From Asterias amurensis (Eukaryota), in the NCBI RefSeq assembly GCF_032118995.1, contig NC_092661.1, positions 18,109,185 to 18,173,184 of the forward strand: a stretch of 64,000 nt of DNA, in the 5' to 3' direction. Each line of letters starts with the position of its first letter. The stretch's first letter is position 1. The notes beneath the pieces were generated by a model that did no database searches, was not told where the DNA came from, and saw nothing but the letters and a program-made list of their open reading frames with translations. Positions 21,395 to 42,455 of this stretch are shown piece by piece. The position numbers and the translations under genes were made by a program.

Positions 21395-21425
21395 ATTTCT
21401 TATGGAATCGGGTATTTTTTTTATT
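21395..21425 (-). promoter_or_regulatory. Candidate polyadenylation signal (AATAAA on - strand) for the uncharacterised gene
   Basis: The minus strand reads '...cacttaaataaataaaaaaaatacccg', about 170 nt downstream of the stop at 21586. Confidence 0.4.
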
Positions 21426-21585
21426 TATTTAAGTGCAATAATTTATAGATTTGACCAGGGGGAGAGGAAAACAACACTCAGCAGCAAAAGGAACATTTGA
21501 GCTTGACGATTTTCAACTTATTTGGCTGAAATTAAATGAAGGGGCAAGTGTTTTCTGTTGTCAGCTGCAAACGTTTTTGTTGAAA

Positions 21586-22166
21586 TCATAACATATAAAG
21601 CATACATTCTCCCTGGATAGGAAGTTCAATCTGTTCAATACATTTAGTAAAAGCTTGGCTCTTCCCAGCATGCTTAACAACCCTTGCTACTCCTCGTACA
21701 ATCACAGTCTCATTAGCGCGAATGGATCGCATCCCATGCCTCTCACAAGAGTATCTTAGAAGCACTTTCATGATCACAGAAATGCGTTTGATGATTGTTT
21801 TGTCCTTTGTTATCTCAGTCCCGAGTTCAGTTTGGCATGGGCTGACTTCTTCAACTGTACCCCGTCCGATGGGTCGTCGTGCTAGATCGGTCAGCACCAT
21901 CTGATCGCCTGCATCCACTGCCACCATGCTGAAGGCATAACCGGACGGGTCGCTGTCCGACCAGAAGAAATTAGGATTGTCATTTAGGCTACCGGTAAAT
22001 GTTAACCTTCGGCCATAGCCCTGACCTATGCGGAGGAGATGTAGGGCCTGTCCATTGAATTGGTGACGTGGTGGTGACGATGTCTGCTGGGCAATGTTGC
22101 TGGAATTGTTCAGAACACGGACTCTGTATCTGAAGCCTGGCATGATGCGTTGATCAACGTGGAATC
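21586..22166 (-). CDS. Uncharacterised protein, terminal coding exon (…GFHVDQRIMPGFRYRVRVLNNSSN…YAFSMVAVDAGDQMVLTDLARRPIGRGTVEEV…ETVIVRGVARVVKHAGKSQAFTKCIEQIELPIQGECMLYML*)
   Basis: It forms part of the 395-codon minus-strand ORF 21586..22773. The acceptor on the minus strand is 'ttttatttttatttgtgcag|GATTCC' at 22167/22166. The C-terminal region is beta-strand-rich, and I cannot assign a domain family from sequence alone. Confidence 0.6.
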
Positions 22167-22301
22167 CTGCACAAATAAAAATAAAATAAAAATCGAGAAT
22201 TTTTTGGTTAATTAAGCAATTCAAAATGATAAAATCAACTCTTTTTTTAAACTGAAATTTTAATTGACTTATTTTTAAAAACGAAAAAAAAAAAGTCTCA
22301 C
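22167..22301 (-). other. 135-nt AT-rich intron (GTGAGA...polyY-CAG) that is stop-free and frame-preserving
   Basis: Donor 'ATTG|gtgagac', acceptor '...tgtgcag|GA'. The long ORF reads straight through it as 45 codons (TFFFSFLKISQLKFQFKKRVDFIILNCLINQKILDFYFIFICA), so it may be a retained or alternative segment. Confidence 0.5.
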
Positions 22302-22716
22302 CAATGACGGGCATTTCGTGCTGTTTCAACCCATGAACTTGGTAGGAAACTGGAACATCCACGCTCTCACACACAACTGGGCCTTGTTTCTCGATGTTAT
22401 TATTTTGGCTGGATGGTGATGAACATTTAGTCCTTTCTGACTCCAAAAAGTCAGCACTGGCAGAAAACTTCTCAAGCCGAAATTCATCTTCTTGAAATTG
22501 ATTTTTCACCGAACAGAGCTCTGATTCTGCCGCATGGTCAAACGGCCCGTTGTATGCCCTGTCCTGACGGAATAGCCCGCCCTCGAAGTCTGCGTTATTT
22601 TCAAGACTCGATATTCTTGAGTCGGCTATATTCCTCACTGCATCATCGTCTGGCATGTTGAAGGAGCAGATATTTTGAAGCTGAGAATCGTAAAAGTGTG
22701 TGTCTACTTCAGTCAT
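22302..22716 (-). CDS. Uncharacterised protein, first coding exon (MTEVDTHFYDSQLQNICSFNMPDDDAVRNIADSRISSLENNADFEGG…VSYQVHGLKQHEMPVIG)
   Basis: ATG at 22716-22714 on the minus strand follows the acceptor 'ctcttttcccatttacag|ACACAATGACT'. The in-frame upstream Met at 22773 lies beyond this acceptor. The N-terminus is acidic and Ser-rich. Confidence 0.55.
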
Positions 22717-23002
22717 TGTGTCTGTAAATGGGAAAAGAGATGTGAAATAACAGTTATACTTAGTAAATCTCATCTTTTAAGTCATACATAACGTGTGCAA
22801 AAATTGTTCTGTGGAAATTTCCTAAACGTCGGTCAGCGCATGGAGGGAGCATGGAGGGGAGGCAGACTGTTTCCAAGAGACAGTTTCGCTGCAAACCACG
22901 AGGCAAATACGTGATCTCAAAACATCAACTCTTTGATAATATTTTGCTTGTTGTCCAAAGTTGATCACGTCGTGAATAAATAACATAAAACGATCAACTT
23001 AC

Positions 23003-23090
23003 CTTGTTTTTCCTCCGTATTTATAACAGAAAACTGAAATTATGAGCGAATTCCCGCCGATACTGAAATATTCTGCGCGATAAAATGAGT
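23003..23090 (-). other. Putative 5' non-coding exon of the uncharacterised gene (donor 'CAAG|gtaagttgatcg' at 23003)
   Basis: A strong GTAAGT donor lies on the minus strand 280 nt upstream of the coding-exon acceptor. The TSS is not determinable and the start coordinate is arbitrary. Confidence 0.3.
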
Positions 23091-23139: not shown

Positions 23140-23560
23140 GCCAATTCATTCACAAATTTTGATACCCCTCTATACCAAATACGGAATTGCAATCCCCATA
23201 TACGGGAAACAAGGCTCCGCCTACAATTAATACTACACGTTGATTGGTCAATACCCACTTTGCCAAATTATTAACTCCGGTGTGATTGGATCATAATAAA
23301 TAAGGAACCTGCATGCCCGGTGCATGCTCAACGAGTGTGAACCGCATGCGTTGTTTAGCTGCGGTCTGCAGTCTTGTTTTTGTTTGGCAAAAACCCACGT
23401 GTGTAAGCAGTTTCTCCCAGGATTGCTCCATGCGCGCGCCCCCGTGACTGATGCACGAAGCCCGTCCGTGCACACACGAAGCATATCACGAAGCAAGTCC
23501 AGTCAAATACGCATTTCGTTACTAAAATGGCAGTTTTGTGGAACAGCTGTGAGTAAATGC
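23140..23560. promoter_or_regulatory. Bidirectional promoter region: CCAAT/ATTGG boxes (23141, 23242, 23284) and a CpG-rich stretch 23290-23500 in an otherwise CpG-poor, AT-rich locus
   Basis: 'ttgattggtcaa' and 'gtgattggatcat' are present. Nearby are 'gcatgcccggtgcatgctcaacg...ccatgcgcgcgcccccgtgactgatgcacgaagcccgtccgtgcacacacgaagc'. It lies between the divergent first exons of the orphan gene (-) and GOGAT (+). Confidence 0.45.
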
Positions 23561-24529: not shown

Positions 24530-24670
24530 ATGGCGGAGAGTTGTCCATTACCAGCGATGGACCTGCAGACTGGTCTGCCATTGGCCCAGGGGTTATATTC
24601 ACCGGAGATGGAGAAGGATGCATGTGGTGTTGGATTTATCGTCAACATTCATGGAATCAAGTCTAAGAAG
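24530..24670 (+). CDS. Glutamate synthase [NADH] (GOGAT) exon 1: MAESCPLPAMDLQTGLPLAQGLYSPEMEKDA|CGVGFIVNIHGIKSKK
   Basis: The exon begins at 24521 after 'ttttag', with ATG at 24530. Donor 'AAGAAG|gtaattcc'. Cys31 followed by GVGFI is the Ntn-amidotransferase nucleophile after a 30-aa propeptide. Phase out is 0. Confidence 0.85.
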
Positions 24671-25073
24671 GTAATTCCACCAATGAAGAAATCAAAAGAA
24701 ATCAAAGCACTTTCAAGGTCTTGACTTGAGTGTGCGCCATATTGTCCATAAGGTAGGCCTATGGTTTGTTTATTTTTGAATATCCAATGCCGTCTGTGAC
24801 TCTGTGACTGGAACTAGCTTCACACACTGTCTAGCTAGATGGCAACTAGTGTTTGAAGTATACAAATCTGTTCCATTGCTTGTTTTTGTTTTGAGTGTAT
24901 GGTTAAATGGTATCAACACATTGTACTTGTAACCTCTCCTCCCCCACCCCCACCCTCCCAAAAAAAACCACACACAAAAAAAAAAACCAAAACAAACAGA
25001 ATTTTATCGAATTTTATTGATATCATTACTGTGCTGGAAGTGCTAAGCTGCTCTATTTTGACTGTGTGTTTAG

Positions 25074-25204
25074 ATCCTTGAAGATGCATCTGTGATGTTG
25101 TGTAGGATGAAGCATAGAGGTGCGTGTAGTGGAGATAATGACACAGGGGATGGAGCAGGTGTTATGACATCGATTCCACATCAGTTATATGCGCGTGTTT
25201 TGAG
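25074..25204 (+). CDS. GOGAT exon 2: ILEDASVMLCRMKHRGACSGDNDTGDGAGVMTSIPHQLYARVL(R)
   Basis: 'tgtgtttag|ATCC' ... 'TTTTGAG|gtaaga'. It carries the conserved 'M.HRGA....DGAG'. Phase out is 2. Confidence 0.85.
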
Positions 25205-25589
25205 GTAAGATTTATATTTGAACATTGGAACCCGTTTCGCTACAGTGAACCATTATTCCATGCTATACCTTTTGCAAAAAATGTTGTTTTGGTCGATATC
25301 AGAGTCGAGGAGCGATTTCGTCCAGTAATTTATACTAATAATAGTAATAATAATTGTGGCTTTTTATATAGCGCACATGTTCGTCACCCAGTGACGCTCC
25401 TGGCGCTGTAACATACAGTATTTTCCTGCCAGATGGACTATGTTTGAATTATGAGACCTAATTCTGATAGCGCCATGTAATGCTTTACAAGGTGCCGTGG
25501 CGCAATTTGCTGCCGATCGGACCAGGAACACTGGGGCGAACCCCTTCTCTTTTCGACAAGTGCACTGGTTCTTTTACATGCGTAACTAA

Positions 25590-25955
25590 GCTTGGGCGAT
25601 ATCACGAAATTATCGAATATCGCGATATTAATTTGGACACGATTTCGATATCGGATGGATTTGGTTTTAATCAAAATATCGATATATTGCGATATATCGC
25701 GATAATCGCGATATATCGATATATCGATTAAATATCGCGGTGTATTTGCTAGCTGATACCCTATAGGTTTGGAGTAAAACCAGAAGAATAGGTCATTAGA
25801 ACACCTCTCTTATACTAGGACTGTCTCTTCTACAAATTTCACTTGGAGTTTTAAGACATGATGTCAAATTTCATTAATCGCGATTATATCGAATATCGCG
25901 ATATATTGTCGGCGATATATCGTGAATAAAATAAATCGATATCGCCCAAGCTTAT
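25590..25955. repeat. CGATAT-rich palindromic/foldback element with TIR 'aagcttgggcgatatc'
   Basis: 'aagcttgggcgatatcacgaaattatcgaatatcgcgatat...cgatatcgcccaagctt'. The interior is almost entirely (atcgcgatat)/(cgatat) motifs. It lies in GOGAT intron 2. Confidence 0.65.
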
Positions 25956-26405
25956 GCGTAACATAACATATGGGACCAACGGCTTAACGTCCCATCCAAA
26001 AGACGAAGCAATGGTTAAGTGTCATGCTTAAGGACACAAGTGTAAGATAACAAAATAATTTAATTTTTTTGGGTGCACACTGAATGCCAAATGTTGAGTA
26101 GCTAATGGCATTTTTTGACTGCTACATTTTGTGTTGCATTTTGCTCTGCTTTTACAAGGGAAATCGATAACTGATGAGTTAAATATTTGTTAATGATGGC
26201 CATTTGATGGTACTTAGTTTGAATATTGCAGCATTTATCCCAAACCATCGCTCGGGTTTGTTTGCGTTATTTTTTTAATGCATTCACTTCTACATGCTTC
26301 TACACACTAAAAAACCTCAATCTTAATTTTAGATTTGAGCCCAAAAGCCTGTTGGGAATAAGGTCAAGGCACTTGAAGGTTTCCATTTCTAATTTATTTC
26401 TGCAG

Positions 26406-26532
26406 AGATGAACTTGATATAAACCTGCCTGGACCATCCCATTATGCCACAGGGATGATCTTTTTGGACAGAGACACTGCACCACAATGCCAAAAGTTAT
26501 TCACAGACTTAGCCACACAGTGTAAACTGAAG
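26406..26532 (+). CDS. GOGAT exon 3: (R)DELDINLPGPSHYATGMIFLDRDTAPQCQKLFTDLATQCKLK
   Basis: 'tttctgcag|AGATG' ... 'ACTGAAG|gtaattta'. It matches ORF 26455. Phase out is 0. Confidence 0.85.
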
Positions 26533-27826
26533 GTAATTTATTCAACATTTAATATGTCATTTTTTGTTGCATATTATTCTAATTTGATAGCAAATTTTCT
26601 CATATATTTTCAGGAAATTTTGAATTTTTTAAGAGAATGATTTGAAAATGAAATTATTTATCGACCATTTAAATATATGTTTTAGTTATATGTTTACATT
26701 ATTGTTCAAAAAATTTATTTTAAAACTAAGAACATTATTGCATTGCCCCCTCTGTGTAGAGAAATTCTTAAGTATGGTCTGGGATGATTGTGTTTTTGTA
26801 TTTTAGAATCGACTCCGGACAGTCGGGGGAATTTAACTATAGCAGTGCCTTGTAATAAATTCCTGTTATGCGTTGCGTTTTGAGCTGTGAATTATTCCTT
26901 TTTCAGAAATTGAAAATAATTTGCTGGGAATCAGAACCGATTTCAGTCCAAGGAAACTCAAGTTCCAACTTTGTTGTGGTCACAGCTTGAATTTTGACAT
27001 AGAGGTAGTTTTATGGTCACATGGATGTGTTTACCAATACAAATGCATGATAATAGGACTTATTTAAATGGCCTTGGCATTTATCCGATTTAAAAGCAAA
27101 ATATTTGTTCTGTAACAGGTCTGGAATTATTTTTATCTTTTTAGAGGGCAAGGCCATTTTTATATCCCAAAGGCACTTCCATTGGAAAATGTTTAAAGTC
27201 TATAGGAATCTTTTGAAGTTGCTTTGGCCTCCCTAGCTTCTGTGAAATAGACCCCTTCATTGGCTGCCATTGATTGCTGAGGTCAGACAATTGAAAAATG
27301 TTTCATAAAGCCTGCAGTGTAAGCGCAAAAGTTTGCTAAGCACAGAATAGTATCGCTTAGCAGAAACAGGTTACCAGCCAAAATTACATTGAATTTGCAT
27401 TGTTGTGGCTGGTATCCCACTCAATTTTTGCTTACCTAAGAAATTTGTCAAGCAGTATTTTCACCCTAACATCTTTATGAAATTGGGCCCTGGCCACACC
27501 AACTCTCAGCCAATGATAGGTCTTCATAAATCTCAGTTAGGGTGCTGTTTGGGTCTTTCGTATATAGGCCTTCTGTTAGTGCTTTGTTATTTCTGATTGT
27601 CTGTCCAGATACCTGGGCCCAATTTCACATAGCTGCTCAAGCAGAAAATACTGACTTCAAAAATCCCTGCTAGGCAATAATGAGCAGGATACCAGTCACA
27701 AGTTTTACTTGGGCTTAATATTTTGGTTGGTAAGTTTATTCTGGTTAGCATAATATTTTTTTGGTTAGCTTGTTTATGTGCTTAACCCGTGCCCTGACTA
27801 TGTTCCCTTGTCCCTTTTATGTGTAG

Positions 27827-27952
27827 ATTCTGTGCTGGCGCACTGTACCCCATGATAGTACTGTCATTGGTGAGATTGCTAAGTCCAGGGAGCCTTTCAT
27901 TCAGCAGGTTTTCATCACTGGAGACTTTGAAGGAGACGAGCTGAAAAGACAG
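27827..27952 (+). CDS. GOGAT exon 4: ILCWRTVPHDSTVIGEIAKSREPFIQQVFITGDFEGDELKRQ
   Basis: 'tgtgtag|ATTCTG' ... 'AAGACAG|gtacgtgg'. It carries the conserved 'W R.VP.....G..A...EP.I.QVF'. Confidence 0.85.
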
Positions 27953-28437
27953 GTACGTGGTTAAGGCCATATCCGAGTTAGTGGCTATGAATGTGGCTAT
28001 TGCTACAACTATGGCGATCGTTGTAGCCGTTGCTGCCTAGTACATCAATGGGTGCGATAAATGAAAGAGACAGGTTGGGTTGTCACTGACTGAAAAAGTA
28101 GAGCTCTTCCTGATTCTGCAGAAAGTTTCCTGAATAACCCAAATCTTTTCATGTTCTGATGAACACATTTGAAAATCTCCCAAATTATGGAAACTGTTTC
28201 CCTATCATCTTGGAATGTAAATCTACATTCTTCCCTGAAATCTCCATGATTGCAAGATGTTAACTTTTGCAGCTCTAGAAAGTGAGAAAGTGGAAATACG
28301 TTAGATAATGCATGCTCAGCAGCTCAGCTGTAAATGACCTATTATAGGAAATTAATGTTTGTTGTTATTTACATGGTTTCCATATTGTTAAGTATGTCCC
28401 TGTCTGACCTTCATATTTTCATGAATTTTAAAAACAG

Positions 28438-28533
28438 GTGTTTTCTTTACGCAAGCAAGCAACTCACACAATTCCTAAGCATGGATACCGATTCTACATC
28501 TGCAATCTGTCTGTGGACACTGTCATTTACAAG
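28438..28533 (+). CDS. GOGAT exon 5: VFSLRKQATHTIPKHGYRFYICNLSVDTVIYK
   Basis: 'aaaacag|GTGTTT' ... 'TTACAAG|gtaaga'. It carries the conserved 'FY.CSLS..T.VYKG'. Confidence 0.85.
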
Positions 28534-29036
28534 GTAAGAATTATCCTTGAATTTTTTCTAAAAGAACATTCATCATATCGGTTTAAATGCCGTTACAGAA
28601 TTGGTTAGAAAAAAATGTGTCTAAGATCACAGATTTACATGAAACTTAACACAGTCTAATGATGATAGTAGAAAACATCTCTTGAAATATTTCTGTCTGA
28701 ATGTCATATTTGAGGAAAAATGAAAGCACATACAAATCCTCTTGGATAAACCTTTGCTCCATCATGTTTATTTCATCCTTATACAAGTCCCTAGTTAATC
28801 ATTATAATTACGCCATGCCTGAGCCATTGACTACGTCAATTCTTCATCTAATATAATTACTTCGCTCCATGGGAATGCAGTACAAAAACATGGCCTCGTT
28901 ATGTAAACATTATCTTATACTATTTCACTCCGCAGTTATTCATTTGTACTTATATGATATGCACCACCTTGCCTTTAATTTGGTTAAGTAAGAAAATTTA
29001 TTTATTAACCTAACACAATGTTGATAAAATGGTCTT

Positions 29037-29424
29037 AAAGGCGATGGACACTATTGGTAATTGTCAAAGACTAGCCCTCACAGTTGGTGTATCTTAACAT
29101 ATGCATAAAATAACAAACCTGTGAAAATTTGAGCTCAATCGGTCATCGAACTTGTGAGATAATAATGAAAGAACAAGCACCCTATAGTCACACGAAGTTG
29201 TGTGCGTGTAGATGGTTGATTTCAAGACATCAAGTTCTAAATCTGAGGTCTCGAAATCAAATTCGTGGAAAATTACTTCTTTCTCGAAAACTATGGCACT
29301 TCAGAGGGAGTCGTTTCTCACAATGTTTTATTACCATCAACCTCTCCCCATTACTCGTCACCAAGAAAGGTTTTATGCTAATAATTATTTTGAGTAATTA
29401 CCAATAGTGTCCACTGCCTTTAAT
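29037..29424. mobile_element. MITE family A copy (GOGAT intron 5)
   Basis: 'aaaggcgatggacactattggtaattgtcaaagact...attaccaatagtgtccactgcctttaat'. It carries the spurious ORFs 29129..29407 and 29212..29397. Confidence 0.75.
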
Positions 29425-32400
29425 TCCTCAGTTGTGTGGTTTGTCACATGAAGAATTATTTATATGTAGAAGCATACTAAAAGATTGAAAAAAAGGTGGA
29501 GCTGAAAAAACACTGTGTGTCATGAATGTCTTATTGATTGTAGAATTAAATATTTTGTAGAATACAGTGAGGTATGCAAAAGGGGGGGTGGGGCTTGGGG
29601 CAGATTGTCTTGGAACATATCAAAGTACTTATTCCAGAGGTATTAAAATTGGTATTGAAAAGTAACACCCATTAATTAATTGTGGAAGATAATGGAATTA
29701 CAATAATGGGTTTAAATTTTATTTCAAGGTAATTGCTGTATTTTTTTCACGAAAATGTGGGTTTTGTTGGGTAGGATATAATATGAAATGTCATTCCTAA
29801 GTCCTGGTTACATTTTCTGCAAATGGTGACAATCTAAAACTGTTGGACAGATCTTGATGTATCAAAACACACACGTTCAAATGATGATCAGTCAGCCATT
29901 GTCTTAAAATTATACAGCATTGCATTCGGCTTTAAAATGAATCAACATTTGGCAAAACAATTTCAATGGATACTTGGCAAAAATATTTGTACTCTTAGTC
30001 AAGTATGTTAGTTTGTAGTACTTTGGGAACACAATTGATTTTTTACTGCAAATGGTGATACAAGAAAACTTTCTTGCTCAATCAAGCAATGTTATAAAAT
30101 ATAATTTAGTTGAGTTTCAACTTTCTGGCATTCAAATAACTCATTTTATGTTTCTGAGTTTAGCCATTCTCAAAATGGTGTACGTGACTAGTTAATAGTG
30201 TAAATAAGCGTTATATTTGATTGACTTTACTGACACCCTAAGTTGTATGAAAGGATGGAATTTGTTCTGTTTGATTTGGTTTTGTGTGAATGTTTTCGTA
30301 CGGTGATAAAGATCCCTTTGATGGCTTTGTGGAGGTTAGGTAGAGAGATGTTTTTAATGATAAACAAGAAGCCATTAAACCTTCAGTTTGTTGGGGTTTT
30401 AAGGCTAGTCTTTACGCGGTTTTTAGTGCAAACTAAACCTACATAATATGTTATGGTAATCCCCTTAACAAATTTCCACTCATTTCTGAGCTACTGCAAC
30501 AGTCGATTGTTTCGATTGAGAAATTTGCATAATCATTGCGTTTAAAATCAACAGAATTAGTTTTCCCTGGTGAGAGCGTGGGAACTTAAACAATTTTGTT
30601 TTTGATTTTTTAATCCAGAAATACCCTTTACAAAAGATTTATTTTTGGCTGGTGACTTCATAATAAGACTTGGCCTAAGAGTTCACTCCTTTTGCAAGTT
30701 TCCTTTCTCCATACTGTACCTTTTAGTATACTAGTTCAAACTCTCCTTAATGTACTATTTTTTGTTTAGGTACATGTTGTATATCAATCACTTCGCCCTC
30801 TTTCTTGTATCGGTTTATCTCTAACTACAGAGCAACCACTATCTCTTCTATTGATCTGATTACATTATAAGCCAGTGATAGACCTTTAATCGGCATCTTT
30901 TCCCCTCCCAGCTACATTTTCTCCTGTCTTAAATAATGGTGATGTCAATCTGTGCATTGATCTGTGTAAATAAAGCAGACCTCATTTCCTTTATTATAAG
31001 CATTAAGCAAATCTCCTTGCTGCGTTTCTGACGTCATATCATCGCCCACTCTCTTCTAGGTATCATGTTTTGATGGATGCTCCTTTTGCTGTGGGCATTG
31101 ATCCCTACCCTAGACACTGAAGTAACACTTTGGTAGATTTCCCCAGAGGAGTCTTTGTGAAAGTAGAATTCCTTCTCCATTAGAATGTAAAAATATTATT
31201 ATAATGCATAGTACAATACAGGTGAAAATGCGATTGCCTCCATGCCCCCAAGTCATTGCATTGGTGCCCTTAAAATGATCCAGTTGAAATTTAAATTTCC
31301 TCATAGAGTGCCCTTTACCATAGAGAAAATGCATTGGTGCCCTTGCCATTTCAAAAAACGAAGCATACAGGCCTGCAGTATGATTATAATGCACCTATAT
31401 GCTGAGTACATTATTTAAGGAGACCCTAATCCATGGTTTGTAGGCACTCTTCTGGCGCTACAGTAGATAAATCTATTGCTGAACCCTTGAACTTGAAGGG
31501 TTCTTGATAGATGAGAAAACAAATAGACATTCAATCATTTGGAATAATCCTGGCAGGTTTGGTTTGTGGCTTTTTCTTAAATTTCATATCAGGCATGTCT
31601 GGATTTCAAAGGATTTTTTTTCTTCTGAAAACCTCCTCGAGCCTTTAAGTTTTCTTGAATTAAAGTAGAACAACCCCAAAAGGGAGAAATGAATAGCCAA
31701 CAACATTGTGTTCAAATATATTTCTGGCGATGCACAGAGTCTGTAAACTTCCCTGAATTATAAACATCTTAGAGATGCCGATTTTGGTTACTACATGTAT
31801 GAATACAGGGGGACTCGGACCATTTTCCAGGAATTTTCACATCTGTCCAATCTCATCCCAGTCTTACATGTATGTGATGCTTCAAAATAAACATCCAAAT
31901 AGCAAAAAACTTTATAACATTTCAGTCCTTTTAGTTTTATACATGATATTGTAGATCTGTCTACTGAATTGCTTTCCTGTTTCACATCATCACTCATCTA
32001 ATGCCTACACAAACAGCCCATGGGAACCTCTTGTAAATATCCTGTGTGACGTCAAGATTTAAGACATGACGTCTTGACAGCTGAAGCTATACGGGGGTTA
32101 TGAGGGTAATTAACCAAAGTGCTATGAATGAATTATAAGACACTATCGAGCTTAAAACGGAAGTCCATTACCCTGATGATCAATTCCATCACATGCTTTA
32201 ATTTGATTGTAAAATACTTTCACTGTACGCTGTTAAGTGTTGTCGGGGTAGGGCAGACGACTTGAGAATGTATGCTTGTAATAATTTATTGCGTTTTTGA
32301 CGCAGAAATCGGTTGAGTGGGTTTTCAAAATAGATTAGGTGTGCGTGGGCGAGGAATGTGATAAACAACACTTTTAAAAACACTTACAGATTGTCTGATT

Positions 32401-33114
32401 TGATTTAGTATGAAATTGAGTTACTTGTACCGTGCTTTGTATGTATTGAAGCTGGTCAGGGAATCTTTCAAGGGTATGGTTGAAAAAGTTGTTCATGAAG
32501 GATGGATAGTTTACAATTTGCAAGACATAATATTCATAATATAAAGCTCCATCTATTAAATTTCCATTTATGAGTTCCTTATTATTTTATTTAACTTAAT
32601 AATTTCCATTTATGAGTTAAATTATTGATAAAGAATCTGGTTGAGATGGTTGAGAATGATTTTATGAGATAAAGCAACCATAATACAAGACTTTGAAATT
32701 GATACAAGGTGGGGTGGCACTTTTTTGCTGCCTGAACCTGCCAGAAACACCATTGCAAACCCCTTTTTTATGCTAAATGCACTTGGTTCTTGCACTGGTT
32801 TTTGTTGTCACAACACATGACCTATGGCTCTACGTCCTATTTGAAGTATGAAGCAATGTGTCTTGCTTAAGAACTCAAGTATCAAGACCGGGACTCAAAG
32901 CCCCACTCTGCTGTTTAGAAACACCAGAGGCTGGTGTGCTTGACTGCTCAGCCACAAGACACCACTATATCATGGACGCCTTGGTGCCCTTTTGAATGTT
33001 CTTATCAGAAAATTTAAATTGTTTTGGTGGCCTTTGTACAGGAAAAATATGAAGCATCGCGCCTAAACATAACATCTATATTTTCTCTCCCTGTTTCTAT
33101 CTTTGTAACACTAG

Positions 33115-33251
33115 GGGATGTTAACTCCAAGTCAGCTGTTTGAGTATTTCACTGATTTTAAGGAGCCTGACTATGAAACACACTTTGCCCATGTTCACAG
33201 TCGATTCTCTACAAATACATTCCCTAGTTGGGAAAGAGCACATCCAATGCG
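33115..33251 (+). CDS. GOGAT exon 6: [45 protein letters not shown](R)
   Basis: 'taacactag|GGGATG' ... 'CAATGCG|gtaggt'. It carries the hallmark '[15 protein letters not shown]'. Phase out is 2. Confidence 0.9.
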
Positions 33252-33850
33252 GTAGGTTTACTTTTTGATTTCTCTATTTACTTGTGTTTCTTGGTGAGTG
33301 ATGATTCCATTGCCTGGAATTTCATCTTAAAGGGGGAAAGGCCATTTTTATTTTAGAAAAGAGCGCTTTCCACAGCAAAAACTTAAATTATATGTGAAAC
33401 TTTTGAAGGGTCCCTTCTGAAATTAGGTTCTATTGCTTACTCGGTTTCTCTCATTAATAAATATACTTTGGATCAAAGAAATTGTAAAAATGTTCTGAAT
33501 ATGTTACTTTTCTTTGGATGATTGTTTTGGACCCTCTTTTCAGGTTTAAGGGCCATATCTGTTCAGTTATTTAGTGCACTGCCTAATCTCTTAAATACAA
33601 ATGTGCATGTCCTTAGTAACTGTGCGCCATAAATATTAACAATCCCATAGAAAAATACTTTTGTTGGTGCTCAGTTTTATTCTTCCTACTAATACTTAAG
33701 TCTGATTTCCTCAAAAGTATATTAGAGCATACACCATTCATACATATTGATCAGCCCTTGCACTCCATCAAGTTTTCCTTCTGTTTTTCCAAGAGCCAAA
33801 TATCTTGCCTGTTTTTTTACTTCACACTTTTGCCTGTTTTAAACACTCAG

Positions 33851-34055
33851 ATACATATCCCACAATGGGGAAATTAACTCCCTACGTGGGAACAGTAACC
33901 TGATGCATGCTCGTGAGGGTGTTATGAATAGTACAGTGTATGGAGACAAGCTGAAACGTCTCTACCCTGTGGTTGAAGAGAAGATGTCAGACTCTGGGCA
34001 GTTTGATAATGTCCTGGAGTTCTTGATCATGGCAGGTGGAAGAACACTTCCAGAG
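33851..34055 (+). CDS. GOGAT exon 7: (R)YISHNGEINSLRGNSNLMHAREGVMNSTVYGDKLKRLYPVVEEKMSDSGQFDNVLEFLIMAGGRTLPE
   Basis: 'aaacactcag|ATACAT' ... 'TTCCAGAG|gtacag'. It carries 'HNGEINT.RGN.NWM.ARE'. Confidence 0.9.
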
Positions 34056-34526
34056 GTACAGTTTCAATTAACTTACAGGCAGGCAACTTTTCAGCTGATC
34101 AGCTGATTACCTCTTTTTCTTTTCAAAACAGTGCCAAAGAAAACTGAAAAAACACTCCACAAAAGTTAAGTGTGATCAGCCATATCCTCTTTTTTTGCAA
34201 TTAGAAAGTTGCATGTCTGAAATTATTTGTATCACAATTTACAACTAATGGTAGAATTATTGTGTTTATTCACAAAGTTTTGAAATTGCTCAGAAACAAA
34301 GTTTGTGTGCACAGTATCAACAGGGCATGAAATTTACACTTGACTGCAGGCCTGAGGTCAGTGATTTTTAGCATCAGGCCAGTAAAATCAAGACTGGACA
34401 AGTCCATCTTGTGATTTTGAGTTGATTGGTAATACCTTACTGTGTTTGTCTGTAATTTAACCAAAACTGATGTTCAAATGTTGGCTTTGAGTCGGATAAA
34501 ATAATCATTGAATTTGGTTAAGTACT

Positions 34527-34912
34527 TAAAGGAACGTTACAGAATTGGTAGAAACAAAAAATGTGAAGATCACAGATTTACATAAAACTTAAAACGGTCT
34601 AATGATGATGATAGTTGAAAACATCCCTTGAAATATTTCTGTATGCATATCATAATTTGATGAGAAATAAGTAATCTAACTTTGCGTTTGGAGTTTATCG
34701 CTCACTGAGCGTTTTATTCATTTTTGCTTTGACATCGATGCAATGCAAAATTTGTAATCGCTTTTTCACTATTTTCTCGTGACCCAGATGGCCGATCGAT
34801 CTCAAACTTCTACAGGTTTGTCTGTTTATGTATATATGGTGGATTACATAAAGTACTTACACTGCCAACAACTGTTTTGTTAGCAAAAACCAATTCTGTA
34901 ATGTTCCTTTAA
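34527..34912. mobile_element. MITE family D (TIR 'AAAGGAACGTTACAGAATTGGT')
   Basis: 'aaaggaacgttacagaattggtagaaacaaaaaatgtgaagatcacagatttacat...ccaattctgtaatgttccttt'. A fragment lies at 28588..28720. Confidence 0.65.
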
Positions 34913-35154
34913 GTATATTTACCCAAAGAAAAATAATTTTAAAAAAGTTCTCTGAGTGCTTGTTTTCAAAAAATTGAGTAGTTTATATGGGAACCGTCTA
35001 GGAAGTTACGGTCTCATTTTCATTCTGGTCTTGTGCCAAAAACTCCTGCCCAGTAAAATATTGAGCTACGAGTTCCTCCGATCATAACAGGAAACTCATC
35101 TTGAGAAGGCAAGGCCATTTTCATTTTGCAAAGGGCACATTTTACTTGAAGACC

Positions 35155-35430
35155 AGGGCCCAATTTCATAGAGCTGTTAAGCAAAAAAATTTGCTAAGCA
35201 TGAAATTTCTTCTCAGATAAAATTTGCTAAGCATGAAATTTCTTCTCAGATAAAAACAGGATTACCAGCCAAATTTCCATTTTTTGCATAGTGCTTGTTA
35301 CTGGTATTCAGCTTTTGTTTGCTTATCATGAAAATCACATGGAAATTTGGTTGATAAACCTGTTTTTATCAAGGAAGAAATTTCATGCTAAGCACTTTTT
35401 GTGCTTAGCAGCTCTATGAAATTGGGCCCT
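35155..35430. mobile_element. MITE family B copy with internal 34-bp duplication
   Basis: 'ccagggcccaatttcatagagctgttaagc...gcagctctatgaaattgggccc'. It contains 'aaatttgctaagcatgaaatttcttctcagataa' x2. Confidence 0.7.
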
Positions 35431-35800
35431 TATAGTTTATCACCCTTTTCGTTTAAGGATCAGTAAGTTAGTTTAGAAACATTCTCTTTCAGTACAGGAC
35501 TTGAAACAGGCGGACCGAGCCTCAGCCATGGCTTAAGCCCAAGCCATACTTTCACAAAGGGCAGATGAGAAACTTTTGAAGGGGCACCAAAGCCAAGACC
35601 ATGGCAACAGACCTCCATAAAGTTTGAGGCCTGCTGTACAATTTACCAGTTTACTTAGTTTAGAAGATGTTCCATTTACCGCCTACCCAGTTGTCTTCAG
35701 ACATAATGTACATGTAGGAGTCATATATACATTTAATATCTTAATATGGATCGTGCAAGCCTCTTAATAATAACAACCCACATTTATGGTTTGATTTTAG

Positions 35801-35912
35801 GCCATAATGACTATGGTTCCTGAGGCATGGCAGAATGATCATCTCATGAATCAAGACAAGAGAGATTTCTATCAGTGGGCTGCGTTTGCCATGGAGCCGT
35901 GGGATGGACCTG
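35801..35912 (+). CDS. GOGAT exon 8: AIMTMVPEAWQNDHLMNQDKRDFYQWAAFAMEPWDGP
   Basis: 'ttgattttag|GCCATA' ... 'GGACCTG|gtatgtta'. Phase out is 1. Confidence 0.9.
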
Positions 35913-36224
35913 GTATGTTAATACTACCAGGGGAAAGGATTCCAATGAAAACATGTGTATATTTCCTTCTGACCCAACTCACCTGTCTATCATCATAATC
36001 TGGGTTGCACCATTTTGGGAGACATGTCCCTTAGTTTTATACATTGTAGTGTGCATTTTAGGCGATACAGAATTTACTTGCAAGTGAAAAAAGGTTGGGT
36101 GTGTGGCAGATAGTAGCCAGGTGAGATGTTTGTGCAAGGGGTCAATTTGAGAAAATTTGAAGAAGCTTAGAATATTCAGAAACACAAATTTATTGTTGTT
36201 GCTGTTTTTCCTCTCTAATTGTAG

Positions 36225-36379
36225 CTCTCTTCACATTCTCTGATGGTCGTTACATCGGTGCTATTCTGGACAGGAATGGTCTACGTCCATCTCGTTACTG
36301 TATTACTAAGTCTGGCTTCATGATCATGGCCAGTGAGGTCGGTGTAGTGGATATCCCACACACTGATGTAGCGCAGAAG
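36225..36379 (+). CDS. GOGAT exon 9: (A)[51 protein letters not shown]
   Basis: 'ctctaattgtag|CTCTC' ... 'GCAGAAG|gtaagatgg'. It carries 'DRNGLRP.RY'. Confidence 0.9.
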
Positions 36380-36819
36380 GTAAGATGGATCAGTAGCTAC
36401 CAGATTCGCTCGGTACTATGTGAAATGACATGACACAATGATTGAAAACTGTATCGAACAATGCCATATTAAAGTGGCTATAGCCGATAATAGCTGCTTA
36501 AATTTTATAACGTTTGGAGTTGAGCACCATTTTTTTTACTTTACAGAAATGAGAAACTGAATACATCAAAAGCAAAACAACATTATCTGGATTTGTGGCG
36601 GATGTCGGATCAACCAAGTTTGGTTTGGTCTCATACACATAAACTTTACCCTAGTACATGTAGTACCCTAAGTTACCAGTTTCTTAGGAATGGTCTAAAG
36701 GTTGAAGTAAATCTTGTTGAAGATGGAATTTCTTATTACTGTGAATCCAGTGTGACTATTATGTCAATTCATACATAATTGTTCTAGAATTATACAAGGG
36801 TTGTTGTCTATCCAACCAG

Positions 36820-37097
36820 GGTCGGTTGAAGCCTGGTCGTATGCTGTTAGTGGACACTGTCATTGGTGAGGTCACCAAAGATGAGGAGTTAAAAAGAGGA
36901 ATTGCTCAGCAGCGCCCAGTGAGCAAATGGTTACGAGAGCAGGTCATCACACTGCCAGACCTCTACAATGTACACAAGCAAGAGGTCATGAGTAATGGGG
37001 AAGATAGCTTGTCTGTGCAGACGGACCATCGCCTGCCCATGTTTGGCTACAGTGTGGAACACCTTAATATGCTTATCGTTCCTATCATCAAAAATAA
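36820..37097 (+). CDS. GOGAT exon 10: GRLKPGRMLLVDTVIGEVTKDEELKRGIAQQRPVSKWLREQVITLPDLYNVHKQ…VEHLNMLIVPIIKN(K)
   Basis: 'atccaaccag|GGTCGG'. The donor 'AAAAATAA|gtaagag' is placed before the in-frame TAA, which would otherwise terminate ORF 36826..37101. Phase out is 2. Confidence 0.8.
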
Positions 37098-37189
37098 GTA
37101 AGAGTTGCTTTTTAGAAGTGTTTTTTTTTTATGGTAGCTTTGCCTCCAACTTGTTGAAATCTTGTTGGAGATCATTTACAGTAGGATGA

Positions 37190-37780
37190 TGACATCCTAA
37201 ACGTTAGATAATGACATCCTGATGGAGGGGCTTATCTCAGGATGACGACAGCTTGAAAGTAGAATGTTGTCTTCCTAATTATCTTGGGTTCTTGACATTT
37301 CCAGGATTATCATCCCATGATAATGGATGTCATCATAATGTCTTCATCCTGAGATATCTTGGGTTCTTAAAGGCCAAGTCACGCTGCAGCGATAACGAAA
37401 ACGATAACGATCACAACGCAAAGAGAACGCATTCTATTGGTTAAATTGCTCCACGCAGAATTTGCACACGCGCAATAGAATGCGTTTTCTTTGCGTCATC
37501 ATAATTTTCATTATCCCTGCAATGTGACTCGGCCTGAACACTTCCAGGGTTATCATCACATGATGAATTATCTTGGCAAGTCAACGTCTTATGTTTCAGG
37601 ATTTCCTCATCCTGAGATATTTCATATCGGATGTCAACATCTTACTTTCAAGATGGCAACATCCTAAGATGAAATATATCAGGAAGATGACATCTTACTT
37701 CAGGATGTTGTCATCCCAAGATATATATCATCTTGGGATGTTGACATCTTACATCCATTATGTGGTCATGATGCAGTAAA
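37190..37780. repeat. Degenerate ~24-bp minisatellite ('gatgacatcctaa…', 'aagatg(g/t)caacatcctaagatg…') in GOGAT intron 10
   Basis: It contains many direct and inverted recurrences of 'gatg(a/t)catc(c/a)t(a/g)a…atcttgggttcttaa'. It also embeds the hairpin MITE at 37370..37530. Confidence 0.55.
37370..37530. mobile_element. Hairpin MITE family F
   Basis: 'aaggccaagtcacgctgcagcgataacgaaaacgataacga…ttctattggttaaattgctccacgcagaatt…gcaatagaatgcgttttctttgcgtcatcat…ctgcaatgtgactcggcct' is a perfect long-stem palindrome. The second copy is at 63043..63215. Confidence 0.65.
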
Positions 37781-38029
37781 TTCTTGCAGTACATGTATCT
37801 AAATATGTTGAAAGTATGACACCTCCAGAGCTCAGTAGTTTTCCCTCTGTTCAATGACGCATTGGAGTGTAAAAATGGTGATTATGAACATTTAATTGTA
37901 TTTGGCATCATAAGGCAATATCAAAAATGATTATCATGGTAGGAAAGAGTCACATTTGAATCTTACAACATCACTATAGTTTTTTGTCAGAGACTCTCAA
38001 TGTTAACGCTTGATTTTTTGTTACTTCAG

Positions 38030-38180
38030 GAAAGAGCCCCTTGGATCCATGGGAAATGACATTCCCCTAGCCTGTCTGTCAGAGCGGAATCCTCTGGTGT
38101 TTGAGTACTTCAAGCAACTGTTTGCCCAGGTTACCAACCCGCCCATTGATCCCATCAGGGAACACATTGTCATGTCACTG
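38030..38180 (+). CDS. GOGAT exon 11: (K)[50 protein letters not shown]
   Basis: 'ttacttcag|GAAAGAG' ... 'GTCACTG|gtatgttg'. It carries 'GSMGND.PLA.LS' and '[12 protein letters not shown]'. Confidence 0.9.
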
Positions 38181-38206
38181 GTATGTTGTATATTAGATAG
38201 CACATT

Positions 38207-38571
38207 AAAGGCACTGGACACTAATGGTAATTACTCAAAATAATTACTAGCATAAAAACTTACTTGGTAACGAGCAATGGAGAGCTGTTGATAGTGTCAA
38301 ACATTGTGAGAAACTGCTCCCTCAGAAGTAACATAGTTTTTGAGAAAGAGGTAATTTCTCACTCAAATAATAAAAGACTTTAGCTGAAGCGTTTTATTAA
38401 GCATCTGAAAGCGCACAATTTGTGCAACAAGGGTGTTTTTTTGTTTATTATTCTCTTGCAACTTCGATGACCAATCGAGTAAAACTTTCACAGGTTTGCT
38501 ATTTGATGCATATGTTGGGATACACCAAGTGAGAATACTGGTCTTTGACAATTACCAAAGGTGTCCAGCCG
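38207..38571. mobile_element. MITE family A copy (GOGAT intron 11)
   Basis: 'aaaggcactggacactaatggtaattactc…attaccaaaggtgtccagccgtt'. Confidence 0.7.
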
Positions 38572-38574
38572 TTG

Positions 38575-38710
38575 ATTTCACCAAACTCTTCCTAACTTAG
38601 GATTCATCTTAGGACTTAGGACGGGTTCAGTTCCAAATACGTAGGACGCGTTGGAACCATCCTTAGTTAGGACGGGTTACTCGTCCTAAGTCGAGTTAGG
38701 ATTAATCCTA
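38575..38710. mobile_element. Repeat family H ('…ttaggac…ggacgggttac(t)cgtcctaa…')
   Basis: A related inverted copy lies at 54790..54905 ('tagtcctaagttaggacgagtaactcatccttactcgag…ctttgtgaaatc'). Confidence 0.5.
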
Positions 38711-39429
38711 GCGTTTCGTGAAATCAGCTGCTGTGCCTTTAAATGGTCTGAGGATGGACAGTCGATGCTGAGGTACTGGATGTGTGCCTCAGGATCTAAT
38801 TTGTCAACTTTCAATACTTACTGAATCCGATTCCACATTAGATTGCTTTACTACACCTCATACAGCAGATTGACATTTACGTGTTCTATCTTTTCATGTA
38901 GTTGTATTGCTAGAGCAGTATATGTGGGCATGTGTTCTACACTGCTGTGACAGTTCCACGACTGCTTCAGAAAGTGCATGCATAGTAGACTAGCATGTGC
39001 CACTTAAGCCTACTACATGTATGTATGCATATTAACCCTGTGCATGATTGTTTGTTTGCGCGGGTTGAAAAGCGATTATAGCATCTGGAACATTATGGTA
39101 AATGGACCATCAAGCAAATGGCTCTCAAGCATAAATATGTATGAGGTTTATTAACCTCATACATATTGTGGTATAAATTAAACATTTTATTCATTCTCAA
39201 AAACTGAAATGCTGTATGAAATTGTTTTTAAACTGTTTTTACTACTTGGGTTGGACTTTAATCTGTAAAAGCACACAGACAAGACGAACACCATTCTTCT
39301 CATACAAACAATTTTGAGAGTCAATATAATATCTGCAAATAATGTTCTTTAGTTGACGTGAATTCAGCGGGAGCAGTTCACATGCAGGTCATCAATCCCA
39401 GGGACTTCATGTCAATTAGCCTTTTTGAG

Positions 39430-40758: not shown

Positions 40759-40893
40759 GCATGTCCCATTGGCCCAGAGAGTAATATTCTTGAGCCAAGT
40801 GAGCTCCAATGCAAGAGGCTTTTTTTGGACATGCCCATCCTTTCTCTAGATGACCTGGTAGTTATCAAGGCAACAACATTCAGAGGATGGAAG
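40759..40893 (+). CDS. GOGAT exon 12: [45 protein letters not shown]
   Basis: 'ttgtttctatag|GCATGT' ... 'GGATGGAAG|gtgagga'. Phase in and phase out are both 0. Confidence 0.85.
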
Positions 40894-42334: not shown

Positions 42335-42455
42335 CACTGATGTATCTTATAGTACTGTATGCTCACCGATAAAAATCACAGGCATATTACTTGGGTGGGA
42401 TTTGAATCCATGACCTTCGCAATACTAGAGCAGTGTCTTACCAGTGTTGGGTTTT
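42335..42455 (-). mobile_element. tRNA-derived SINE (family S1), inverted partial copy ending 13 nt upstream of the exon 14 acceptor
   Basis: The reverse complement reads 'cccaacactggtaagacactgctctagtattgcgaaggtcatggattcaaatcccacccaagtaatatgcctgtgattttt'. It matches the heads of the copies at 48296 and 52594. Confidence 0.6.

What the first reader, a model, noticed from the sequence alone, without database searches (positions are those of the whole stretch)
21586..23003. Orphan-looking gene head-to-head with GOGAT, with a beta-rich C-terminal region of unrecognised family
The minus-strand reading frame is 395 codons long. The spliced model gives ~331 aa: an acidic, Ser-rich N-terminus followed by a strand-rich C-terminal half (…YAFSMVAVDAGDQMVLTDL…ETVIVRGVARVVKHAGKSQAF…). 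I cannot place it in any family from memory. It has canonical splice sites, a poly(A) signal and a CCAAT-box promoter shared divergently with GOGAT. It is either a lineage-specific gene or one with a domain too diverged to recognise by eye.
Basis: partly seen in the sequence, partly recalled or inferred. Interest (0 to 1): 0.55.

Follow-up and report, generated by a model that had tools for sequence, protein, structure and literature searches.

The report
Ancient unnamed gene paired with GOGAT
The "orphan-looking" starfish gene is a real member of an old, unstudied animal protein family with no match in Pfam or among solved structures, and it has sat head-to-head with the glutamate synthase (GOGAT) gene in at least four animal phyla, which makes a link to nitrogen metabolism testable.

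Summary
A 395-codon minus-strand ORF (21586-22773) contains a 135-nt in-frame GT..AG intron. The spliced 331-aa product is 100% identical to an NCBI "uncharacterized protein" of Asterias amurensis. GOGAT exons lie divergently on the plus strand.

The gene is not lineage-specific. Homologues occur in echinoderms, hemichordates, amphioxus, annelids, brachiopods, molluscs, chelicerates, insects (two tandem domains), cnidarians and ichthyosporean protists. All are unannotated. No prokaryotic relative was found.

The single coding intron has the same position and phase in five phyla. The head-to-head arrangement with GOGAT is kept in Asterias, Patiria, Lytechinus, Branchiostoma, Lingula and Owenia. 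It is not seen within 10 kb in three molluscs, a termite or one Nematostella paralogue. Paired CCAATCA boxes lie upstream of the gene in the six GOGAT-linked species, and paired CCAAT-type boxes in three of the six unlinked loci.

Function is unknown. My best guess (0.45) is a co-regulated accessory or regulator of GOGAT-centred nitrogen metabolism. The main rival (0.40) is linkage kept only by cis-regulatory constraint.

The parts
21586..22166 (-). Coding exon 2, including the TGA stop. It encodes residues 139 (part) to 331, which is most of the conserved all-beta domain.
   Evidence: Blastn finds 67% identity over 621 nt to Patiria exon 2.
22167..22301 (-). Coding intron: 135 nt, GT..AG, phase 1, AT-rich, in frame and stop-free. 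It is the reason the raw ORF is 395 codons long.
   Evidence: The position and phase (in the codon of the invariant Gly of HE.PV.G) are identical in Patiria, Lytechinus, Magallana, Lingula, Branchiostoma and Owenia. Only the Asterias intron lacks an in-frame stop.
22302..22716 (-). Coding part of exon 1, with the ATG at 22716. It encodes the disordered acidic N-terminus (about residues 1-112) and the first strands of the domain.
   Evidence: pLDDT is below 50 for residues 5-107. Net charge is -12.
22722..23002 (-). Putative 5'-UTR intron (GTAAGT ... TTTACAG). It is not verified.
   Evidence: Canonical sites are present. Seven upstream ATGs would otherwise precede the start codon. No RNA evidence is available.
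21424..21429 (-). AATAAA polyadenylation signal.
   Evidence: 157 nt downstream of the stop codon.
23195..23355 (.). Conserved intergenic promoter block. It has two CCAATCA boxes (CCAAT at 23289-23285 and 23247-23243, minus strand, 42 nt apart) and GCATGC-type palindromes.
   Evidence: The core of the block is the only non-coding intergenic blastn match to Patiria (window 23326-23283, 82% over 44 nt). The pairwise alignment extends the conserved stretch to about 23195-23355, with both CCAAT boxes invariant, although synonymous sites are saturated.
24530..61486 (+). Divergently oriented NADH-type glutamate synthase (GOGAT) gene with many exons. Its start codon, probably at 24530, is about 1.8 kb from the ATG of the gene under study.
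   Evidence: Open frames with GOGAT peptides. Pfam hits to GATase_2, Glu_syn_central, Glu_synthase, GXGXG, Fer4_20 and Pyr_redox_2. Exon 1 is homologous to GOGAT exon 1 in five other species.

Best explanation
SHOWN. This is a genuine protein-coding gene with two coding exons. It is the Asterias orthologue of an ancient, uncharacterised protein family found in animals and their ichthyosporean relatives. The product has no signal peptide or mitochondrial presequence by eye. It consists of an acidic disordered N-terminal tail of about 110 residues and a compact all-beta domain of about 215 residues. The invariant residues of that domain are concentrated in its first half: HE.PV.G, PGFRYRVR, SIG.GYGKRLTF and N.N.FWSDS.P.G[YF]AF. 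The gene has been kept head-to-head with the NADH-GOGAT gene since at least the last common ancestor of deuterostomes and spiralians. Paired CCAAT boxes lie upstream of it. INFERRED (the mechanism I commit to). The protein is transcribed together with GOGAT from the common upstream region and acts in the same process. It would be a non-essential accessory or regulator of GOGAT-centred glutamine/glutamate metabolism. The conserved face of the beta domain would bind GOGAT or a related metabolite. The disordered tail would be a regulatory handle; in many orthologues it carries an RRLxNAxWRxWW helix that resembles the DUF1752 motif of the fungal nutrient regulators Reg1 and AreA. The tandem two-domain form in insects suggests that the single-domain protein works as a dimer.
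For: Gene reality: exact identity to an NCBI model; purifying selection, with pN 0.19 against pS 0.82 in the domain; the intron has the same position and phase in five phyla. Family breadth: 297 representatives with E<=1e-3 among 1.84 billion proteins; the named members are all holozoan; no relative in 185,579 prokaryotic genomes. Fold: two independent AF2 models (Asterias, amphioxus) have pLDDT above 90 across the domain. Linkage: GOGAT is divergent and adjacent in the window, Patiria, Lytechinus, Lingula, Branchiostoma and Owenia, and tblastn of GOGAT exon 1 confirms this independently. CDS-to-CDS gaps are 1.5-9 kb. Promoter: an Asterias-Patiria conserved block carries both CCAAT boxes; CCAATCA boxes occur in sense-strand pairs 28-83 nt apart in all six linked species, against a background of 0.11 per kb per strand. 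Precedent: conserved 5'-5' pairs with short, conserved intergenic regions tend to be co-expressed, and they include partners in one complex such as HSPD1-HSPE1 and HADHA-HADHB (PMC3514665). Motif: PF08550 matches two orthologues at E 0.0025 and 0.043; DUF1752 lies in Reg1/Reg2, where missense mutations disturb Snf1/AMPK control (bioRxiv 10.1101/2025.06.23.660305). Both insect domains keep the invariant motifs.
Against: There is no expression, interaction or biochemical data of any kind. Linkage was broken without loss of the gene in the oyster, Physella, Plakobranchus, Cryptotermes and Nematostella P0091. In three of those unlinked loci, paired CCAAT-type boxes still lie upstream of this gene and not near GOGAT. 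No Diptera, Lepidoptera or nematodes appear among the named hits, although to my knowledge those groups have GOGAT. GOGAT therefore does not need this protein. The absence of both genes from vertebrates could result from one deletion of two neighbours. In Lingula, Branchiostoma and Lytechinus the CCAAT pair is 3.6-5.9 kb from the GOGAT start codon, so a strictly shared core promoter is uncertain there. The DUF1752 match is below Pfam's threshold (18.1 against 20.9 bits). The motif is degenerate in the starfish protein itself, and a profile search with it found nothing.
Confidence: 0.45

Rival explanations
1. The gene and family are the same, but the pairing with GOGAT is kept only by cis-regulatory entanglement. 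This could be a common or overlapping promoter region, or enhancers of one gene lying in or next to the other. The protein then works in a process unrelated to GOGAT. One example would be a proliferation-linked function, because multiple closely spaced CCAAT boxes are typical of NF-Y-driven cell-cycle genes (my own knowledge).
For: Conserved 5'-5' pairs are generally explained by regulatory constraint, and many are functionally unrelated (PMC3514665). The gene survives with paired CCAAT-type boxes at three loci where it is not next to GOGAT, and the oyster and Nematostella P0091 loci have one box each. Linkage was lost several times. GOGAT exists in taxa that seem to lack the family (the taxon lists contain no Diptera, Lepidoptera or nematodes).
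Against: The exact orientation is retained in four phyla, over what I estimate as more than 500 My, with gaps of only 1.5-9 kb. This is a strong signal, and known pairs of this kind include real functional partners. No named member came from vertebrates, which to my knowledge lack GOGAT.
Confidence: 0.4
2. The beta domain is itself an enzyme acting on a small molecule, and is not a binding or regulatory module. It may or may not act in nitrogen metabolism.
For: A set of invariant or nearly invariant polar residues (E134, R155, R192, N202, S208, D209, Q250, C326) is kept from ichthyosporeans to starfish. This pattern is typical of active or ligand-binding sites.
Against: No similarity to any catalytic family was found in Pfam or PDB, by sequence or by fold. 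The near-invariant Cys is absent from the second insect domain (sequences). The coordinates of the models were not available to me, so I could not test whether these residues cluster.
Confidence: 0.12
3. It is a lineage-specific (orphan or de novo) starfish gene.
For: No Pfam or PDB hit.
Against: Homologues with E-values from 1e-100 down to 1e-12 were found in many phyla. A profile search gave 236 hits at E<=1e-10. The intron position is conserved across phyla.
Confidence: 0.01
4. It is a transposon-derived ORF, a pseudogene or a chance ORF.
For: The long ORF runs through an intron, and a MITE-like repeat lies about 640 nt downstream.
Against: The region is single-copy in the window. There are no transposon domains. 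Selection is purifying. Synteny and intron position are conserved.
Confidence: 0.01

Closest known systems
Ancient conserved head-to-head gene pairs (CAMPs of Irimia et al. 2012, such as HSPD1-HSPE1 and HADHA-HADHB)
   Same: The 5'-5' orientation is kept across phyla. The intergenic distance is short (1.5-9 kb between coding sequences). Intergenic sequence is conserved between two starfish orders even though synonymous sites are saturated (PMC3514665).
   Different: One partner has no known function. Co-expression is untested. The pair cannot be seen from vertebrate-centred surveys, because no named family member came from vertebrates and, to my knowledge, vertebrates lack GOGAT. I could not check whether this pair is in their list, because no supplement is held.
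PF08550 / DUF1752 (GATA_AreA) motif of the fungal regulators Reg1/Reg2 and AreA
   Same: A short helical R-R-L-x-N-x-x-W-R-x-W motif sits inside a disordered N-terminal region in the amphioxus, annelid, brachiopod, hemichordate and sea-anemone orthologues. Two of them hit PF08550 at E 0.0025 and 0.043. The carriers are nutrient-signalling proteins.
   Different: All hits are below Pfam's gathering score. The motif is degenerate in the Asterias protein. The fungal proteins have nothing like the beta domain. The function of DUF1752 is itself unknown.
GltC, the LysR-type regulator transcribed divergently from gltAB (GOGAT) in Bacillus subtilis (my own knowledge)
   Same: A small gene sits divergently next to the GOGAT gene. 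This is a precedent for a divergent neighbour that controls GOGAT.
   Different: There is no sequence or fold relationship. GltC is a DNA-binding helix-turn-helix protein of bacteria, and no prokaryotic relative of this family exists.
Curved antiparallel beta-sheet domains (Tim44 C-terminal / mL45, NTF2-like, cystatin/latexin) and small SH3/Tudor-like barrels

Membership tests
Any Pfam-A family | A score above the family's gathering threshold | tested here: not met
   The Asterias protein gave 0 families at E<=10. Across 36 family members there were no hits at or below E 0.01 (best 0.015).
PF08550 (DUF1752 / GATA_AreA motif) | At least 20.9 bits against the 28-position profile | tested here: not met
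   The best orthologue fragment scored 18.1 bits (E 0.0025) and a second gave E 0.043. Eight others and the Asterias protein gave no hit. The motif pattern is not found in starfish sequences.
The unnamed holozoan family defined here | The motifs HE.PV.G, PGF.Y.VR, SIG.GYGKR.TF and N.N.FWSDS.P.G[YF]AF inside an all-beta domain of about 215 residues | tested here: met
   Invariant columns are E134, G139, R155, L182, G186, G188, F195, D209 and G214, among others. E-values reach 1e-100 to other starfish and 1e-12 or better to cnidarians.
The unnamed holozoan family defined here | A phase-1 intron in the codon of the invariant Gly of HE.PV.G (bilaterian members) | tested here: met
Conserved co-regulated 5'-5' gene pair (bidirectional-promoter type) | Divergent orientation conserved across phyla | tested here: met
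   Window, Patiria, Lytechinus, Branchiostoma, Lingula and Owenia.
Conserved co-regulated 5'-5' gene pair (bidirectional-promoter type) | Transcription starts less than about 1 kb apart, and correlated expression | not testable with these tools
   Only CDS-to-CDS distances (1.5-9 kb) are known. No transcript or expression data are available.
Conserved co-regulated 5'-5' gene pair (bidirectional-promoter type) | Conserved intergenic sequence | tested here: met
   The Asterias-Patiria block at about 23195-23355 carries both CCAAT boxes.
Orphan / lineage-specific gene | No homologue outside the lineage | tested here: not met
Transposable-element ORF | Multiple copies, transposase or RT domains, no conserved synteny | tested here: not met
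   Single copy in the window, no such domains, conserved synteny.

The most novel reading that the evidence does not exclude
The protein is a dedicated partner of animal NADH-GOGAT: a regulatory subunit, inhibitor or assembly/stability factor. It would have a previously unseen all-beta fold and would have been inherited with GOGAT as a two-gene unit since before the bilaterian ancestor. It has been overlooked because the family seems to be missing from vertebrates, Drosophila and C. elegans. This would add a new component to the GS-GOGAT nitrogen-assimilation cycle of marine invertebrates, including symbiotic cnidarians.
Probability: 0.25. Interest if true: 0.75.

Novelty: new variant of a known kind. 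Interest (0 to 1): 0.55.

Why it matters
GOGAT lets many invertebrates assimilate ammonium, and vertebrates lack the enzyme. It is central to nitrogen recycling in insect-symbiont systems and in cnidarian-algal symbioses. Little is known about how animal GOGAT is regulated.

A small protein has stayed next to GOGAT, in the same orientation, in echinoderms, amphioxus, brachiopods and annelids. That makes it the most obvious candidate regulator or partner, and the idea can be tested directly by co-expression, pull-down and knock-down in sea urchin or starfish embryos.

Independently of GOGAT, the family is a widely conserved holozoan domain with confident structure predictions and no match in Pfam or the PDB. 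It is a good target for family curation and structure determination.

The case also shows that an "orphan-looking" gene in a non-model genome can belong to an old family that appears to be absent from the standard model organisms.

Tried and rejected
- **Sequence searches with no result.** Pfam on the protein and on 36 family members gave nothing usable. PDB searches with the single sequence and with a profile gave 0 hits.
- **Motif lead not confirmed.** A profile of the N-terminal RRLxNAxWRxWW motif searched against 5.8 billion proteins found nothing (the first attempt was rejected as too short). The link to DUF1752 therefore remains a sub-threshold lead.
- **Second homology search.** Repeating the search with the family alignment added no new named taxa.
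- **Prokaryotic origin rejected.** No relatives were found in GTDB genomes.
- **GOGAT fusion not found.** I considered that the family might exist as a fusion with GOGAT, which would explain the sea-slug names. No protein longer than 844 aa is among the best 150 hits, and no GOGAT exon lies within 10 kb in Plakobranchus.
- **Intron retention rejected.** I considered that the in-frame, stop-free intron marks a retained-intron isoform. In six orthologues the same intron carries early in-frame stops.
- **No literature found.** Searches for orthologue identifiers and for the GOGAT pair found nothing. The supplement of Irimia et al. 2012 is not held.
- **Transposon or chance ORF rejected**.
Full report
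**1. The observation**

The minus strand carries an ORF of 395 codons at 21586-22773. Within it lies a 135-nt AT-rich stretch, 22301-22167, bounded by GTGAG...TGCAG. The stretch happens to be in frame and free of stop codons.

Starting at the ATG at 22716 and removing this stretch gives a 331-aa product. That product is 100% identical over its full length to an NCBI "uncharacterized protein" of the starfish Asterias amurensis.

Homologues read straight across the junction (HEMPVIG|FHVD). The same intron is present in six other species of five phyla. In each it is phase 1, in the codon of the invariant glycine of the motif HE.PV.G. In all of them, retaining the intron would run into a stop codon within 4-32 codons. 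The 395-codon ORF is therefore an accident of a short in-frame intron.

- AATAAA lies 157 nt after the stop codon (21429-21424).
- The splice sites are canonical, including a possible 5'-UTR intron at 23002-22722.
- Seven upstream ATGs would precede the start codon if that UTR intron were not removed.
- The transcription start cannot be fixed without RNA data.

On the plus strand, open frames from about 24.5 to 61.5 kb carry GOGAT peptides. They hit GATase_2, Glu_syn_central, Glu_synthase, GXGXG, Fer4_20 and Pyr_redox_2 in the expected order. The two start codons are about 1.8 kb apart and the genes diverge. The region is single-copy in the window.

**2. The gene is not an orphan**

A search of 5.8 billion proteins returned 52 homologues:
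- other starfish, at 54-55% identity over the full length
- a sea urchin
- many hemimetabolous insects
- oysters (several paralogues) and gastropods
- the brachiopod Lingula
- an octocoral

A profile search of 1.84 billion cluster representatives found 297 proteins at E<=1e-3 and 236 at E<=1e-10. Cluster look-ups named these further members:
- Chordates and hemichordates: amphioxus, Ptychodera
- Annelids: Owenia, Capitella
- Molluscs: Lottia, Haliotis, Nucella, Bulinus
- Arthropods: horseshoe crab, ticks, the beetle Onthophagus
- Cnidarians: Nematostella (two paralogues), Exaiptasia, Actinia, a scyphozoan
- Ichthyosporean protists: Chromosphaera perkinsii, Sphaerothecum destruens

Every source calls the protein hypothetical or uncharacterised. 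The only exceptions are two sea-slug entries named "glutamate synthase" (see section 7). No prokaryotic relative was found in 185,579 genomes. No vertebrate, dipteran, lepidopteran or nematode appears among the named hits. This is absence of evidence from capped lists, not proof of absence.

Between Asterias and Patiria the synonymous sites are saturated (pS 0.82). The domain has pN 0.19 and the N-terminal tail has pN 0.40. The domain is therefore under clear purifying selection.

**3. Anatomy of the protein**

AlphaFold2 with a 38-sequence alignment gives a disordered N-terminus. Residues 5-107 have pLDDT below 50, and the first 112 residues carry 22 acidic against 10 basic residues. From about residue 113 to 331 it gives an all-beta domain, mostly at pLDDT above 90. 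An independent model of the amphioxus orthologue shows the same domain.

The invariant and nearly invariant residues are these:
- Invariant: E134, G139, R155, L182, G186, G188, F195, D209, G214. G190, S208 and G297 are invariant in two of the three alignments.
- Nearly invariant: R192, N202, W207, Q250, C326.

They are concentrated in the first half of the domain. The second half is a long antiparallel sheet and is more variable. Insects carry two tandem copies of the domain in one chain, and both copies keep the motifs. This pattern often arises from a homodimer, but that reading is my inference.

Many orthologues carry a short helix, RRL[QE]NAxWRxWW, in the disordered tail. In the amphioxus model it is predicted as a helix at moderate confidence. 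The carriers include amphioxus, Owenia, Lingula, Ptychodera and sea anemones. Two of the ten fragments tested hit Pfam PF08550 (DUF1752 / GATA_AreA) at E 0.0025 and 0.043, which is below the gathering score. DUF1752 occurs in the yeast PP1 regulatory subunits Reg1 and Reg2, where missense mutations lie in it, and by its Pfam name in AreA. The motif is degenerate in starfish, and a profile search with it found nothing. I treat it only as a lead.

**4. No known family or fold**

| Search | Result |
|---|---|
| Pfam, Asterias protein | nothing at E<=10 |
| Pfam, 36 family members | no hit at or below E 0.01 |
| PDB sequences, single sequence and profile | 0 hits at E<=10 |
| Foldseek vs PDB | best E 0.053 |

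**5. The conserved pairing with GOGAT**

The tool reports CDS ranges, and GOGAT refers to a gene of about 2,100 aa.

| Species (phylum) | GOGAT divergent and adjacent? | CDS-to-CDS gap |
|---|---|---|
| Asterias (Echinodermata) | yes | about 1.8 kb |
| Patiria (Echinodermata) | yes | 2.1 kb |
| Lytechinus (Echinodermata) | yes | 9 kb |
| Lingula (Brachiopoda) | yes | 3.9 kb |
| Branchiostoma (Cephalochordata) | yes | 6.4 kb |
| Owenia (Annelida) | yes | 1.5 kb |
| Magallana (Mollusca) | not within 10 kb | – |
| Physella (Mollusca) | not within 10 kb | – |
| Plakobranchus (Mollusca) | not within 10 kb | – |
| Cryptotermes (Insecta) | not within 10 kb | – |
| Nematostella paralogue P0091 (Cnidaria) | not within 10 kb | – |
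| Paramuricea (Cnidaria) | undetermined; the contig ends 2.8 kb upstream | – |

I confirmed the result independently by tblastn of the Asterias GOGAT exon 1 against all fetched loci. It hits only those five external loci, always on the opposite strand upstream.

The arrangement is therefore shared by deuterostomes and spiralians and is most simply ancestral to them. It was then lost several times without loss of the gene.

**6. The promoter region**

The only non-coding intergenic blastn match between Asterias and Patiria is at window 23326-23283 (82% over 44 nt). The pairwise alignment extends the conserved stretch to about 23195-23355. It contains GCATGC palindromes and two CCAATCA boxes 42 nt apart, and both boxes are invariant.

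Sense-strand CCAATCA pairs spaced 28-83 nt lie upstream of the gene in Lingula, Branchiostoma, Owenia and Lytechinus as well. The background rate is 0.11 per kb per strand. Paired CCAAT-type boxes are also found 230-430 nt upstream of the start codon in Physella, Plakobranchus and Paramuricea, where GOGAT is not adjacent. The oyster has a single box at -153 and Nematostella P0091 a single box at -813.

The paired CCAAT boxes are presumably NF-Y sites, which is an inference. They therefore appear to belong primarily to this gene. They are 0.95-1.3 kb from the GOGAT start codon in starfish and Owenia, but 3.6-5.9 kb away in Lingula, Branchiostoma and Lytechinus. A strictly shared core promoter is plausible only in the first group, unless GOGAT has far-upstream 5' exons.

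**7. How it probably works**

The following are shown:
- It is a real, constrained, ancient gene.
- The protein has a disordered tail plus a beta domain, with a conserved polar patch in the sequence.
- No signal peptide or presequence is visible by eye.
- The divergent pairing with GOGAT is deeply conserved.
- Paired CCAAT boxes lie upstream in most of the loci examined.

The following are inferred:
- Conserved 5'-5' pairs with short, conserved intergenic regions tend to be co-expressed. Known examples include partners of one complex, such as HSPD1-HSPE1 and HADHA-HADHB (PMC3514665).
- I therefore favour a co-regulated, non-essential accessory or regulator of GOGAT-centred nitrogen metabolism (0.45). 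In this model the domain binds GOGAT or a metabolite and the tail is a regulatory handle.
- The main rival (0.40) is that only cis-regulatory entanglement preserves the pair and the function is unrelated. Supporting it, the linkage was broken repeatedly, the CCAAT boxes remain with this gene at unlinked loci, and GOGAT exists in taxa that seem to lack the family.
- The invariant polar residues keep an enzymatic role open (0.12).
- The orphan, transposon and chance-ORF readings are refuted.
- The absence of both genes from vertebrates does not discriminate between the models, because one deletion could remove both neighbours.

One point remains unexplained. The Plakobranchus and Elysia orthologues (301-307 aa, entirely this family) are named "glutamate synthase" in NCBI. 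They have no GOGAT domain, and no GOGAT exon lies within 10 kb in Plakobranchus.

**8. Novelty and verdict**

The gene model is public but uncharacterised. I found no paper on the family or on its pairing with GOGAT. I could not check the pair lists of earlier microsynteny surveys.

It is best described as a new instance, with an unrecognised protein family as one partner, of a known kind of arrangement: ancient conserved divergent gene pairs. Interest is moderate (0.55). There is no demonstrated mechanism, but the hypothesis about animal GOGAT is clear, cheap to test and new. The family also deserves curation and a structure.

Noticed in passing
window 20523-20947: A MITE-like element of about 425 bp lies about 640 nt downstream of the gene's stop codon. 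Its terminal inverted repeats are about 100 bp long (20533-20625 against 20947-20852, 91% identical). At least 10 further copies at 67-86% identity are scattered through the window, several of them in GOGAT introns (for example 29088-29413, 52058-52370, 60663-60985).
   Followed up: partly
window 39438-40064: A tandem repeat of 163 bp x 3.9 copies, 97% identical, lies inside a GOGAT intron. Each unit carries an open frame, which explains the repeated 74-aa ORFs seen there.
   Followed up: partly
window 22167-22301: The coding intron is 135 nt long, in frame and stop-free despite being very AT-rich. This creates the misleading 395-codon ORF. In six orthologues the intron at the same position has early in-frame stops, so this is a coincidence and not a retained-intron isoform.
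   Followed up: yes
P0033 (Plakobranchus, locus L008) and P0035 (Elysia): These orthologues are named 'glutamate synthase' and 'glutamate synthase [NADH], amyloplastic' in NCBI. They contain only this family's domain, and no GOGAT exon lies within 10 kb in L008. The origin of the name is unexplained.
   Followed up: partly
insect homologues P0004-P0018, P0057: Insect members are about 520-570 aa long and carry two tandem copies of the domain. Both copies keep the invariant motifs. The Cryptotermes gene spans 15 kb with many introns.
   Followed up: partly
P0037 (Laodelphax striatellus, 393 aa): This gene model joins an AA_permease_C region (labelled cationic amino acid transporter) to this family's domain. 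It is possibly a fused model of neighbouring genes.
   Followed up: no
P0153 (Sanderia malayensis, 844 aa): This jellyfish member has a C-terminal extension of about 600 aa that looks, by eye, like discoidin/F5-8 type C repeats. It could be a real fusion or an artefact of the gene model.
   Followed up: no
L010 (Nematostella P0091) and P0067: Nematostella has two paralogues. P0091 is intronless, lacks the N-terminal motif and sits between prolyl 4-hydroxylase and M13 peptidase genes. P0067 carries the RRLQNVLWRAWW motif.
   Followed up: partly
oyster homologues P0021-P0031; locus L003: Magallana and Crassostrea have several closely related paralogues of 287-296 aa. The one examined is not next to GOGAT; its upstream neighbour is a B-box/NHL gene.
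   Followed up: no
window about 60064-60271: The open frames here read as long runs of Ile or Tyr, which indicates a trinucleotide microsatellite in a GOGAT intron.
   Followed up: no
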